DNA of 64,000 bases from the human T2T-CHM13v2.0 reference genome, Homo sapiens. The stretch lies in NCBI RefSeq assembly GCF_009914755.1, contig NC_060943.1, one strand, 5' to 3'. Below the pieces are notes generated by a model. It saw nothing but the letters and a program-made list of their open reading frames with translations, did no database searches and was not told the origin of the DNA. This document shows, one piece after another, positions 18,780 to 46,654 of this stretch (positions within the stretch are counted from its first letter, which is position 1; the number at the start of each line of letters is the position of its first letter). The translations under genes and the position numbers were made by a program.

Positions 18780-18872
18780 CGTGCTGGCTGCATCTGTAGA
18801 TGATGAAGACTGAGAGGAAGAGGAGAAGGATGGAGATGCAGCTGAAGATGGCGACAAAGATGGTTCTGGTGT
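18780..18872 (-). CDS. VSTM1: VSTM1 exon 5, transmembrane (DTRTIFVAIFSCISILLLFLSVFIIYRCSQH)
   Basis: ccctccag|AC...CACG|gtgag; 93 nt, symmetric, so skipping gives the known soluble VSTM1-v2 form. Confidence 0.96.
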
Positions 18873-30313: not shown

Positions 30314-31132
30314 AATGCCTCTCACAGTTATTCTCCATCTATAATGTGTTTTTTAATTACTCTGATAGCTTGCTCTTATTTCTTTCTTTCTTCCAAAGAA
30401 GAATGTGAGCTCCTGTTGGCCAGAGACCTGGTCTGTCTCAGTTCCTACAATATGCTCAGGATCTACCAAAGTATCTGAATTTGTAGGGTGAATGGGCAGC
30501 TATTTTTGTGCCAGGTATTTTGCATTAATTTTTTTTTGTAATGGAAGCATTTATATGCCCATTTTGTAATAAGTAAAAAGTAGTATAATAAAAAAGTAAA
30601 AAGTAGTATAATAAAGTGATTTGCAAAGCAGCAAACAGATTGTATATGGAAGGTTGACCTGGAAAATCAACCACTGGAAATTGATACTATAGCCTGTCTT
30701 GTGATGTAATGGTACAGCTGCGATAGAGGTGAAGAAATCAGGAAACAGTAGATGATATGCCAGAGAACATAATTGGGAAATGGCAAATAATCGCGAGGCT
30801 TTTAGGGCTAAAGTGTGGGTGCAGAAATTCTTAAGACTACAAGAACGAGTTATGGGGAATACAATTTGAAATCAATATCAAAGTGATGAGCACCTTGTTG
30901 GAGTATCATTGATCAAGAGCCTCAGAAAGAGGGTAAATCAGAGGTGAAACATTAAGTATTCAGTTACTCATCATGCCCCAAGCCCAGGCTAAGTCATTGG
31001 TGTGGACCCACGGCTACTTCTACACTACACTGATGACTGTAAAGTCTCTCCAGGGATTTCCCATGATATGGCAGGACTGACCTACTGGAAGCAACTGTGG
31101 TCAGTTGAGAGGTATTGTTTAGTGACTAATAA

Positions 31133-31550
31133 ATGAATGGATGAATGGATGGATGGATGGATGGATGGATGGATGGATGGATGGATAGATGGATAGGTGG
31201 GTGGGGGTGAGTGAATGGGTGAAAGGGTGGATGAGTGGATGAATGGGTGGAAGGATGGACAAATGAGTGGCTGGGTAAATAGATGGGTAGGTAGGTAGAT
31301 AGATGGATGAAGGGGTGGGTGGACAGATGAATGGAAGGGTTGGTGGTTGGATGGATTAATGGATAGATGAATGGATGGATGGATGGATGGATGGATGAGT
31401 TGATGGATAGATGGATAAGTGAGTGGATGGATGGGTGAATGAGTGGGTAGGAGGGTGGATGGGTTGGTAGGTGGGTAGATGGGTGGGTGGGTTGATAGAT
31501 GGGTGGGTAGATTGATAGATGGATGGGTGAGTAGATAAATGGGTAGATGA
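31133..31550. repeat. Degenerate (GGAT/GGGT)n array in VSTM1 intron 3
   Basis: Direct reading. Confidence 0.92.
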
Positions 31551-45390: not shown

Positions 45391-45728
45391 AGAAGGTGGA
45401 TCTTAAACAGAAAGGTCCATAAGCTAGATTGAGATAACCATTGTCACAATGAGTGAAATTTCTTCCTCGGCACACAATTAATTACTTAGTTAGTAGGAAA
45501 GTTCCCAGAAGGTGGATCTTAAACAGAAAAGTCCATTAGCTACATTGTGATAATCATGTCACAATTAGTGAAATTTCTTCTTTGGTACACAATTAATTAT
45601 TTAGTAGGGAGGTTCCCAGAAGGTGGATCTTAAACAGAAAGGTTCGTTAGCTACATTGTGATACTCATGTCACAATCAGTGAAATTTCTTCCTTGGTACA
45701 CAATAAATTACTTAGTAGGAGGGTTCCC
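45391..45728. repeat. Tandem repeat, 3 copies of ~111-116 bp, embedded in an old L1M 3' fragment
   Basis: Units start AGAAGGTGGATCTTAAACAGAAA at 45391, 45507 and 45618 and each ends GTTCCC. Confidence 0.9.
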
Positions 45729-45915
45729 CACCCGTAGGCTTATGGGGGTATAATTGATAAATCAAAATGGAATATATCAAAACATCACGTTGTACACAAA
45801 TATAACTCCATTTTTATTTGTCGATTAGATCTCAATAAATCTGGAGCAGAAGAGAATTCCATATCTCTACAGCAGCCCATGAAAGAGAGAGGGGATCCGT
45901 GTTTTAACTTGGATC

Positions 45916-46522
45916 TGTTACTGGAAAGGGGTCCCAGTCCAGACCCCAAGAGAGGGTTCTCGGATCTCACACAAGTAAGAACTCAGGGTGAGTACACAGA
46001 GTAAAGTGAAGGCAAGTTTATTAAGAAAGTCAAGGAATATGGCTGCTCCATAGGCAGAGCAGTCCAGAGGGCTGTCAGTCGGCTATTTTTGTGGTTATTT
46101 CTTGATCGTATGCTAAACAAGGGGTGGACTGTTCATGAGTTTTCCAGGAAAGGGGAGGGGATTTCCCTGGAACTGAGAGTCCCTCCCTCGTTTAGCTTCT
46201 GGAAGTTGCCATGGCATCTGTAAGCTGTCTTGGTGGCGGTGGGAGTGTCTTTTAGCATGCAAATGCATTATAATTAGCAAATAATGTGCAGTGAGGACGA
46301 CCAGAAGTCACTTTTGTTGCCATCTTGGATTTGGCAGGTTTTGGCTGGCTTCTTTGTTGCATCTTTGTGTCTTTGGGTCTTTGTGACCTGTATGTTGTGA
46401 CCTGTCTCATCCTGTGACTTAGAAAGCCTCAACCCCCTGGGAATGCAGTCCAGCAGGTTGCAGCCTCAGTTTACCCAGCCCCGGTTCAAGATGGAGTCAC
46501 TCTGGTTTGAAGGCCTCTGATT
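45916..46522 (-). mobile_element. MER41 (MER41B-like) ERV1 solo LTR overlapping the TARM1 C-terminus and 3'UTR
   Basis: Minus strand begins TCAGAGGCCTTCAAACCAGAGTGACTCCATCTTGAACCGGGGCTGGGTAAA and ends GGACCCCTTTCCAGTAACA, matching recalled MER41 termini; retains the GAS-bearing segment. Confidence 0.85.
46017..46022 (-). terminator. TARM1: LTR-derived AATAAA, candidate TARM1 polyA signal
   Basis: tttatt on + strand within the MER41 LTR, ~475 nt after the TARM1 stop. Confidence 0.55.
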
Positions 46523-46654
46523 CACCTGGAGACACATTCCGGCTGTACCAGGCCTCCACCAGGAAAGCTCCCATGATAACCACAATTACGGCAGCCAGAC
46601 CCAGTCGTACGAAGTTACCCAGGGAGTAGTTGCTCGATGTGGTACCTGGGGGAA
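46497..46654 (-). CDS. TARM1: TARM1 exon 5 CDS: stalk, TM with Arg (GNFVRLGLAAVIVVIMGAFLVEAW), short tail, TGA
   Basis: ctttcag|TTCCCCCA; ORF 46497..46679; N-x-x-R-L-G motif typical of FcRgamma-associating LRC receptors. Confidence 0.96.

What the first reader, a model, noticed from the sequence alone, without database searches (positions are those of the whole stretch)
45916..46526. TARM1 cytoplasmic tail end, stop codon and 3'UTR are exapted from a MER41 LTR sitting on a possible ancestral splice donor
Seen: the TARM1 CDS ends CCA G|GT GAA TCA GAG GCC TTC AAA CCA GAG TGA CTCCATCTTG. From TCAGAGG onward this matches the recalled 5' end of MER41 (TGTCAGAGGCGTTTGAACCAGAGCGACTCCATCTTG), so S-E-A-F-K-P-E-stop and the AATAAA at 46017 are LTR-derived. 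Just before the LTR is CAG|GTGAAT, a donor-like site in phase 1, the same phase as the VSTM1 TM-exon donor. Inference: a primate LTR insertion at about +4/+5 of the donor converted an internal TM exon into a terminal exon, rewriting the tail and supplying the polyA site.
Basis: partly seen in the sequence, partly recalled or inferred. Interest (0 to 1): 0.75.

Follow-up and report, generated by a model that had tools for sequence, protein, structure and literature searches.

The report
LTR-derived end of the TARM1 gene
The last seven amino acids, the stop codon and the annotated 3' untranslated region of the human immune receptor gene TARM1 come from an old retroviral LTR that landed in the very end of its coding sequence, an ordinary kind of event that seems unreported for this gene.

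Summary
Window 46520 to 45916 (minus strand) is one copy of an abundant LTR family with TG...CA ends and 4-bp target duplications. The MER41 name rests on print, not on Dfam. A 26-nt MER41B-like motif from PMC2897888 occurs once in the window, inside this element, and the tandem STAT1 sites are present.

The LTR lies in the sense orientation. It encodes S-E-A-F-K-P-E, the TGA stop and all of the annotated 3'UTR.

The LTR's AATAAA (46022-46017) is the first poly(A) hexamer after the stop. RefSeq ends the transcript at 46389, so use of that signal is inferred, not shown.

The "ancestral splice donor" idea is not supported. Of 46 database proteins with the TARM1 transmembrane region, only the 3 catarrhine clusters carry EAFKPE. 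Twenty-six of the other 43 stop within three residues after a G-S motif. That motif aligns with the residues just before the LTR-coded part in macaque and gibbon. The exon was therefore already terminal, and the LTR replaced about one residue plus the stop. The donor-like 9-mer is at chance frequency.

Verdict: a new member of a known kind, of modest interest.

The parts
46497..46654 (-). Coding part of the TARM1 terminal exon (stalk, NxxR transmembrane helix, short tail, stop)
   Evidence: Hub annotation. Translation: PPGTTSSNYSLGNFVRLGLAAVIVVIMGAFLVEAWYSRNVSPGESEAFKPE*.
45916..46520 (-). Solo LTR of MER41 type, in the same orientation as TARM1, about 605 nt
   Evidence: 39 other scored copies at 75-79% identity, most aligned from 46520 to 45916-45918; family ends are TG|TCAGAGG...GGTAACA. 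The flanks are not retroviral.
46521..46524 (-). Junction zone TGAA. It is unclear which of these bases are host and which are the LTR's terminal TG.
   Evidence: 13 of 19 copies have exactly TG directly before TCAGAGG (15 counting the TT and CG variants). This copy has TGAA. No 4-bp duplication matches the downstream GATC in human.
46500..46520 (-). Seven LTR-encoded codons, S-E-A-F-K-P-E
   Evidence: The same seven residues end the chimpanzee, gibbon and macaque cluster proteins.
46497..46499 (-). Stop codon TGA, inside the LTR at a CpG-decay site of the family
   Evidence: the aligned triplet reads TGA in 4, CGA in 5 and CAA in 7 of 19 copies.
46389..46496 (-). Annotated 3'UTR, entirely LTR sequence
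   Evidence: Hub annotation (exon 46389-46654) together with the LTR span.
46142..46172 (-). Tandem STAT1/GAS sites: TTCCAGGGAA (46172-46163, one extra base) and TTCCTGGAA (46150-46142, perfect)
   Evidence: 15 of 19 copies keep at least one TTCNNNGAA in the aligned stretch. PMC2897888 says the MER41B consensus has two GAS sites 21 bp apart.
46103..46128 (-). Match to the MER41B-like motif M2 printed in PMC2897888
   Evidence: 24 of 26 bases, the only match in the window, and 0 of 100 shuffles gave any; exact in 3 of the 19 other copies.
46017..46022 (-). The LTR's own AATAAA, the first poly(A) hexamer after the stop, followed by TGTGT-rich sequence
   Evidence: none of 13 common hexamers lies between 46496 and 46023. 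AATAAA sits at the aligned place in 13 of 19 copies.
46520..46528 (-).
   Evidence: one of 54 such matches in the window, with 61 +/- 7 expected by chance. Its last base is LTR and the two before it lie in the junction zone.
45904..45915 (-). Host flank just past the LTR, GATCCAAGTTAA. It is possibly the second half of a GATC target duplication plus a relic of the ancestral last codons and stop (inferred).
   Evidence: joining ..CCAGGTG to GATCC.. reads S-P-G-G-S, as in macaque and gibbon (S-L/P-G-G-S/L) and like S-P-R/S-G-S in other mammals. The TAA at 45906-45904 is one base out of that frame.
45813..45818 (-). Second AATAAA, about 100 nt past the LTR, inside a fragment of another dispersed repeat
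   Evidence: query 58-145 = 45858-45771 matches many places at 75-86%.

Best explanation
A solo LTR of the MER41 kind sits in the sense orientation inside the 3' end of the coding sequence of TARM1's terminal exon. MER41 is a gammaretrovirus-like ERV family that print dates to 45-60 million years ago.

Before the insertion, the tail ended ...S-P-(R/S/G)-G-S-x-stop, as it still does in lemurs, carnivores, horses and bats. The integration fell at about the G-S codons. Translation now runs from host sequence into the first 21 bases of the LTR (S-E-A-F-K-P-E) and stops at a TGA that lies on a CpG-decay site of the family. About one ancestral residue and the stop were swapped for seven residues.

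This was tolerated because the receptor signals through the arginine in its membrane helix and FcR-gamma, not through its tail.

All of the annotated 3'UTR is LTR sequence. The first usable poly(A) signal is the LTR's own AATAAA, about 475 nt past the stop, and it probably ends the mRNA.

Shown here: the LTR identity and boundaries, the LTR origin of the seven codons, the stop and the 3'UTR, and the restriction of the new tail to catarrhine proteins.

Inferred: the exact integration point, the GATC duplication, the timing (before the ape / Old World monkey split, with New World monkeys unresolved), and use of the LTR poly(A) signal.
For: LTR identity:
- 3736 candidates; 39 other scored copies at 75-79% identity, most ending at 46520 and 45916.
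- shared termini TG|TCAGAGG...GGTAACA. By my reading of the printed flanks, about 12 of 19 copies have perfect 4-bp target duplications.
- printed MER41B-like motif M2 matched at 24 of 26 bases at 46103-46128, the only match in the window, with none in 100 shuffles.
- tandem GAS sites present; AATAAA kept at the aligned place in 13 of 19 copies; global identity 80-83%.
- (review passage): the MER41B consensus carries the STAT1 motif that MER41A lacks through a 43-bp deletion, and the family dates to 45-60 My.

Ancestral tail:
- 46 of 122 database proteins have the TM region plus the E-A-W motif.
- Only the 3 catarrhine clusters (chimpanzee, gibbon and macaque representatives) end in SEAFKPE; 0 of the other 43 do.
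- 26 of the 43 stop 0-3 residues after x-x-x-G-S/C.
- Macaque EAWHSRKVSLGGS|SEAFKPE aligns without gaps to lemur EAWCSQKASPSGS|R-stop.
- joining the human upstream flank to the downstream flank reads S-P-G-G-S across the insertion site.

Poly(A) signal:
- no PAS hexamer lies between the stop and 46022. The RefSeq end at 46389 has no hexamer upstream, and the 40 nt after it are 52% A.

Function of the tail:
- (passages): TARM1 has a short tail with no signalling motif and signals through FcR-gamma by way of the NxxR motif.
Against: - No intact target duplication flanks this copy in human. GGTG or CAGG lies upstream and GATC downstream, so the exact junction is uncertain by about 4 bases.
- The macaque and gibbon proteins used to place the junction are flagged 'LOW QUALITY PROTEIN' by NCBI. 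I could not see where those models were corrected, and no non-human DNA was available.
- Under the GATC model the human downstream flank has no in-frame stop. The nearby TAA is one base out of frame, so the 'relic stop' needs one indel.
- 16 of the 43 non-catarrhine tails end differently and one reads on (rodents, ruminants, camel, hyaena, tarsier).
- The orthologues' exon structures were not seen, only their proteins.
- No transcript in the hub's table extends to the LTR AATAAA.
- The literature-named MER41B copy upstream of AIM2 is only distantly similar to this element. BLAST found nothing at E<=0.001, and the local alignment score was 220 against at most 117.5 in shuffles.
Confidence: 0.8

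Rival explanations
1. The TM exon was once internal, with a live phase-1 donor CAG|GT at 46526/46525 and further tail exons downstream. The LTR landed at +4/+5 of that donor, killed it, and turned the exon into a terminal one.
For: - The 9-mer matches the donor consensus at 8 of 9 positions.
- It is in phase 1, like the donor of the paralogue VSTM1's TM exon (and arithmetic on the hub table).
- VSTM1 does have four more exons after its TM exon.
Against: - 0 of the 43 non-catarrhine TARM1 proteins show a long tail spliced on at this point. 26 of the 43 stop 0-3 residues after the G-S that follows it.
- The residues past the supposed donor (G-S) can be read straight across the insertion site in human DNA.
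- Donor-like 9-mers of this quality are at chance frequency (54 observed, 61 +/- 7 expected).
- Bases +4 to +6 of the site are junction or LTR bases.
- By the shared C-S-Q-K/H motif, VSTM1's donor corresponds to a point four codons upstream, not to this site.
- The hub table shows no exon downstream of 46389.
Confidence: 0.06
2. The LTR supplies the coding end and the 3'UTR sequence but not the working poly(A) site. Transcripts end where RefSeq says (46389) by a non-canonical signal, or they run through the LTR to the AATAAA at 45818-45813.
For: - The hub annotation ends every TARM1 transcript at 46389.
- A second AATAAA lies about 100 nt past the LTR.
Against: - None of 13 common hexamers precedes 46389, and the 40 nt after it are 52% A. 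This pattern fits oligo-dT internal priming or a truncated cDNA.
- A transcript reading on would first meet the LTR's canonical AATAAA with a TGTGT-rich stretch behind it.
- That signal is the family's own and is kept in 13 of 19 copies.
Confidence: 0.35
3. The LTR integrated just behind the ancestral stop, in the 3'UTR. Only later did a small deletion at the junction remove the stop and fuse the frame to the LTR.
For: - The junction has clearly been reworked. Human and chimpanzee have one residue fewer than gibbon and macaque (G-E-S against G-G-S/L-S).
- No clean target duplication remains.
- The galago tail stops directly after G-S.
Against: - Macaque and gibbon proteins leave no room for a stop between G-G-S and the LTR-coded S-E-A.
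- A GATC duplication, if real, places the integration inside the G-S codons.
- The model needs an extra event.
Confidence: 0.1

Closest known systems
LTR sequences that span the CDS and 3'UTR of a last coding exon (survey by Piriyapongsa et al. 2007, PMC2008291; passages and tables read)
   Same: The LTR overlaps both the end of the coding sequence and the 3'UTR of the last coding exon. That survey counted 571 LTR associations with last CDS exons, of which 71 span both regions. ERV1 accounted for 513 of all 1395 associations.
   Different: TARM1 and MER41 do not occur in that paper's main text (0 hits for MER41). Its supplementary tables were not opened. Here the insertion lies directly in the coding end of an existing terminal exon. 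It is not an intronic LTR recruited by new splice sites, as in that paper's IL22RA2 case.
Transposon-derived terminal exons and poly(A) signals in immune receptor genes (IFNAR2-S Alu exon, IL18R1-Short L2 signal, IL13RA1; review PMC13709765, passages read)
   Same: A lineage-specific transposon supplies the 3' end of an immune receptor transcript.
   Different: Those cases make truncated alternative isoforms that lose signalling domains and act as decoys. In TARM1 the LTR-derived end belongs to the selected RefSeq transcript, and only the last few residues of a motif-less tail change. The review mentions neither MER41 nor leukocyte-receptor-complex genes (0 hits each).
MER41 LTRs as interferon-inducible enhancers (Schmid and Bucher 2010, PMC2897888; the MER41.AIM2 account in review PMC9963469)
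   Same: It is the same repeat type by printed hallmarks: tandem GAS sites and the M2 motif next to them.
   Different: Those elements act as STAT1-bound enhancers outside transcripts. This copy is transcribed and partly translated. Whether STAT1 binds it was not tested. One of its two GAS sites has an extra base.
HERV LTR encoding the C-terminus of a human leptin receptor isoform, and HERV-H LTR poly(A) use in HHLA genes (recalled from memory; no paper opened)
   Same: An LTR gives C-terminal residues and/or the poly(A) signal of a cellular mRNA.
   Different: As I recall them, those are alternative isoforms made through splicing into the LTR. Here there is no splice into the LTR.

Membership tests
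MER41 LTR (ERV1 / gammaretrovirus-like) | Dispersed, many copies, about 600 nt, shared TG...CA termini | tested here: met
   3736 first-look candidates; 39 other scored copies at 75-79% identity; termini TG|TCAGAGG...GGTAACA in the 19 copies examined. PMC2897888 states that MER41 covers about 4 Mb of the genome, which is the same order of copy number.
MER41 LTR (ERV1 / gammaretrovirus-like) | 4-bp target-site duplication flanking the copy | tested here: inconclusive
   By my reading of the flanks printed, about 12 of 19 other copies show a perfect 4-bp duplication. The TARM1 copy shows none in human (GGTG or CAGG against GATC). Macaque and gibbon proteins are compatible with GGATC upstream, but no DNA was seen.
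MER41 LTR (ERV1 / gammaretrovirus-like) | Two GAS (STAT1) sites in tandem 21 bp apart, as stated for the MER41B and MER41E consensus sequences in PMC2897888 | tested here: met
   15 of 19 copies keep at least one TTCNNNGAA in the aligned 70-nt stretch. In the TARM1 copy the site at 46150-46142 is perfect, and the site at 46172-46163 has one extra base, which makes the spacing 22.
MER41 LTR (ERV1 / gammaretrovirus-like) | Sequence motif M2 that PMC2897888 Table 1 attributes to MER41B | tested here: met
   24 of 26 bases at 46103-46128 (-), the only match in 64 kb, and 0 of 100 shuffles matched; exact in 3 of the 34 loci held, all three among the 19 copies.
MER41 LTR (ERV1 / gammaretrovirus-like) | Match to the Repbase/Dfam consensus and assignment to a subfamily (A-G) | not testable with these tools
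No Dfam or RepeatMasker is available here. I built no consensus. The GAS region is present, so this is not the MER41A type with the 43-bp deletion (review passage).
MER41 LTR (ERV1 / gammaretrovirus-like) | Close similarity to a copy that print names MER41B (the one 220 bp upstream of AIM2) | tested here: inconclusive
   - I took AIM2 to be the only minus-strand HIN/PYRIN gene in the chromosome 1 cluster (the identification is recalled).
- BLAST found nothing at E<=0.001 in 20 kb.
- Local alignment scored 220 against at most 117.5 for shuffles, with clear likeness only around the GAS core.
- That element's own close relatives number about 30 candidates.
MER41 LTR (ERV1 / gammaretrovirus-like) | Restricted to (anthropoid) primates | tested here: inconclusive
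   The LTR-coded tail is seen only in the 3 catarrhine protein clusters and in 0 of 43 others, including tarsier, lemurs and galago. New World monkey models lack this exon. No non-human DNA is available.
LTR-derived coding end plus 3'UTR of a last exon | LTR overlaps both the CDS and the UTR of the annotated last coding exon | tested here: met
   The LTR spans 46520-45916. The CDS ends at 46497 and the exon at 46389 (hub table).
Transposon-derived poly(A) site | mRNA cleaved and polyadenylated just downstream of the transposon's hexamer | not testable with these tools
   The hexamer is present and is the first after the stop. It is the family's own signal (13 of 19 copies). No 3'-end data are available, and the annotation stops at 46389.
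   26 of 43 non-catarrhine tails stop 0-3 residues after G-S, and none has a long spliced tail at this point. Only proteins were seen, not exon maps.

The most novel reading that the evidence does not exclude
The insertion may have done more than cap the gene. It put a MER41 LTR with a still-perfect STAT1 site (TTCCTGGAA, 46150-46142) inside the 3' end of a myeloid activating receptor gene. In catarrhines the same element could therefore serve three roles: coding end, 3'UTR and poly(A) site, and an interferon-gamma-responsive enhancer for TARM1 and its neighbours VSTM1 and OSCAR. That would give Old World primates an interferon link to this receptor cluster that other mammals lack.
Probability: 0.1. 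Interest if true: 0.55.

Novelty: new member of a known kind. Interest (0 to 1): 0.3.

Why it matters
The finding explains why the catarrhine TARM1 C-terminus (SEAFKPE) differs from that of all other mammals examined. Human and mouse tails therefore cannot be treated as equivalent in reagents or constructs.

It also suggests that the annotated human 3' end (46389) is probably incomplete. That matters for 3'UTR reporters, probe design and quantification with 3'-tag RNA-seq.

It adds a clean example of an LTR tolerated inside coding sequence, because it hit the last codons of a tail that has no signalling motif.

It does not change what is known of TARM1 function.

Tried and rejected
- Naming the LTR through the AIM2 copy. 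I located the minus-strand HIN/PYRIN gene on contig C1 and fetched 20 kb. BLAST found no hit at E<=0.001. A tandem GAS pair at 158214339/158214360 marked an LTR-like element that aligns only weakly. That element belongs to a small family of its own. This route neither confirmed nor refuted the name, so I used the printed motif instead.
- The founding TARM1 paper (Radjabova 2015) is not held, by DOI or by PMC id. Its gene-structure figure and any cDNA 3'-end data were not seen.
- The second AATAAA (45818-45813) as the ancestral poly(A) signal. I dropped this as a claim, because 45858-45771 is a fragment of another dispersed repeat of unknown age.
- DNA alignment of the TARM1 and VSTM1 TM exons. 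There was no significant alignment (score 19, over the acceptor tract only), so no DNA-level homology of donor positions can be claimed.
- A within-window repeat search found only Alu-type families and no second copy of this LTR among the 20 largest direct-repeat families and 25 longest inverted pairs it listed.
- Literature searches. TARM1 with MER41 gave 0 papers. TARM1 with LTR gave 4 papers, of which 3 were listed: two on HIV TAR mutants and one civet genome paper. A wider six-term search listed nothing containing TARM1 among its top 15.
- Constraint on the seven new residues. They are identical in the three catarrhine clusters. Only about 1-2 substitutions would be expected in 24 nt between human and macaque (my estimate), so this says nothing either way.

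Full report
**What is in the sequence.**
On the minus strand the TARM1 reading frame ends ...AAT GTG TCT CCA GGT GAA TCA GAG GCC TTC AAA CCA GAG TGA. This translates to ...NVSPGESEAFKPE-stop. The stop lies at 46499-46497 and an AATAAA at 46022-46017.

**The repeat.**
I searched the window's own genome with 45916-46526 (minus strand). The first look gave 3736 candidates, of which 40 were scored. One was the query itself. The other 39 were copies elsewhere at 75-79% identity, and most aligned from query base 7 (window 46520) to base 609-611 (45918-45916).

I looked at the ends of 19 of these copies with their flanks.
- They share the termini TG|TCAGAGG... and ...GGTAACA.
- Similarity stops exactly there.
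- By my reading of the printed flanks, about 12 of the 19 have a perfect 4-bp duplication on either side.

This is the signature of a class I (ERV1) LTR. The TARM1 copy is bounded by the exon on one side. On the other side it has 57 nt of unique DNA followed by a fragment of another repeat. It is therefore a solo LTR. [quoted passage not shown]

**The name.**
No Dfam is available here, so I tested the MER41 label against print.
- Schmid and Bucher (PMC2897888, passages read) print a 26-nt motif, M2, that they attribute to MER41B. They also state that the MER41B consensus has two GAS sites 21 bp apart.
- M2 occurs once in the 64-kb window, at 46103-46128 on the minus strand. It has 2 mismatches, and none of 100 shuffles gave a match.
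- M2 is exact in 3 of the 19 other copies.
- Just upstream lie TTCCAGGGAA (46172-46163, one extra base) and a perfect TTCCTGGAA (46150-46142). Fifteen of the 19 copies keep at least one TTCNNNGAA in the aligned stretch.
- A review passage (PMC9963469) says MER41A lacks this region through a 43-bp deletion, so the copy is not of that type.

A second route gave little. The element that print calls MER41.AIM2 lies where expected, upstream of the minus-strand HIN/PYRIN gene on contig C1. It resembles the TARM1 LTR only weakly, with a score of 220 against at most 117.5 in shuffles. BLAST found nothing at E<=0.001. Its own close relatives are few (30 candidates).

I therefore file the element as MER41-type with the subfamily open.

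**What the LTR contributes.**
- From 46520 on, everything is LTR: the seven codons S-E-A-F-K-P-E, the TGA, and the whole annotated 3'UTR (46496-46389).
- The stop sits on a CpG-decay site of the family. The aligned triplet is TGA in 4, CGA in 5 and CAA in 7 of the 19 copies.
- Without the stop, the frame would run 25 codons further.
- The stop was therefore either carried by the inserted copy or arose soon after. It is shared by the chimpanzee, gibbon and macaque proteins.

**Where the mRNA ends.**
RefSeq ends the exon at 46389.
- None of 13 common poly(A) hexamers lies between the stop and 46023.
- The 40 nt after 46389 are 52% A. This suggests internal priming or a truncated cDNA rather than a cleavage site.
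- The first hexamer is the LTR's AATAAA. It is kept at the aligned place in 13 of 19 copies and is followed by TGTGT-rich sequence.

Use of this signal is likely but not shown, and no annotated transcript reaches it.

**The donor hypothesis.**
However:
- Matches of that quality number 54 in the window, against 61 +/- 7 in shuffles.
- Its last three bases are junction or LTR bases.

The decisive test is the orthologues. A search with the second Ig exon returned 120 listed proteins, many named TARM1, from primates, carnivores, ungulates, bats, rodents and marsupials. A search with the last-exon peptide added two more. The tails compare as follows.

| Group | Number of proteins |
|---|---|
| Database proteins examined | 122 |
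| With the NxxR membrane helix followed by E-A-W | 46 |
| Of those, ending in SEAFKPE (all catarrhine: chimpanzee, gibbon, macaque clusters) | 3 |
| Other tails | 43 |
| Other tails carrying SEAFKPE | 0 |
| Other tails stopping 0-3 residues after x-x-x-G-S/C | 26 |
| Other tails with the motif that read on | 1 |
| Other tails ending differently (rodents, ruminants, camel, hyaena, tarsier and others) | 16 |

- Examples of the common ending are EAWCSQKESPRGST, EAWCSQKASPSGSR in a lemur, and EAWYSPKESPSGS in a galago.
- Macaque EAWHSRKVSLGGS aligns without gaps to lemur EAWCSQKASPSGS. After that point the lemur has R-stop and the macaque has SEAFKPE-stop.

The exon was thus already terminal with a 13-15-residue tail. 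The LTR replaced roughly one residue and the stop.

Joining human ...CCAGGTG to the downstream flank GATCC... reads S-P-G-G-S across the site. This fits a coding sequence that was contiguous before the insertion.

This rests on very few residues.

**Limits.**
- I saw proteins, not exon maps or non-human DNA.
- The macaque and gibbon models are flagged low quality by NCBI.
- Human and chimpanzee have one residue fewer at the junction (G-E-S against G-G-S/L-S), so the human junction has been reworked. That would explain the missing target duplication. The GATC duplication I propose is an inference.
- The TAA at 45906-45904 is one base out of the reconstructed frame.
- New World monkey models lack this exon, so the insertion is dated only to before the ape / Old World monkey split. 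Print dates the family to 45-60 My.

**Comparison and novelty.**
- LTRs that overlap the coding end and UTR of last exons are a counted class: 71 of 571 last-exon associations in PMC2008291.
- Transposon-derived 3' ends of immune receptor genes have been reviewed (PMC13709765).
- Searches found no paper that links TARM1 to MER41 (0 papers) or to an LTR in the gene sense. Supplementary tables of the surveys were not opened.
- TARM1's tail has no signalling motif, and the receptor works through FcR-gamma. The change is therefore probably near-neutral.

This is a tidy new member of a known kind.

Noticed in passing
window 45445-45740 (-): There are three head-to-tail copies of a unit of about 116 nt (...ctactaagtaat...tgtgacatga...gtttaagatccaccttctgggaac...). 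The own-genome search matched 45560-45728 to the adjacent 45445-45617 at 88% identity. No function is suggested.
   Followed up: partly
window 45771-45858 (-): This is a fragment of another dispersed repeat, with dozens of places in the genome at 75-86% identity. It begins 57 nt past the LTR and holds the second AATAAA (45818-45813). From memory its letters resemble the 3' end of L1, but this was not tested.
   Followed up: partly
L022:110-738 (own genome C1:158214110-158214738, minus strand): The LTR-like element upstream of the gene I took to be AIM2 has tandem GAS sites 21 nt apart. Print calls it MER41B. It has only about 30 first-look relatives, and it matches the abundant family clearly only over its GAS core of about 70 nt (79-85% identity to many places). 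It looks like an atypical or separate relative.
   Followed up: partly
window 18780-18872 (VSTM1 TM exon) against 46530-46545 (TARM1): VSTM1's TM exon ends ...YRCSQH at a phase-1 donor. Most non-catarrhine TARM1 tails read ...AWCSQK and then 7-10 more residues before the stop. TARM1's short tail might be an old read-through past a donor homologous to VSTM1's. This rests on a 3-4-residue likeness, and no DNA alignment supports it.
   Followed up: partly
proteins P0038, P0055, P0060, P0069, P0072-P0074, P0085, P0086 and others: Many carnivore, bat and rhinoceros models named TARM1 or TARM1-like end in a VSTM1-like inhibitory tail (...ETCVYSxLK). They are either TARM1-VSTM1 read-through models or true inhibitory paralogues.
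   Followed up: no
window 31100-31500 (+): A long GGAT/GGGT-type microsatellite-like array lies inside the VSTM1 intron (family D19).
   Followed up: no
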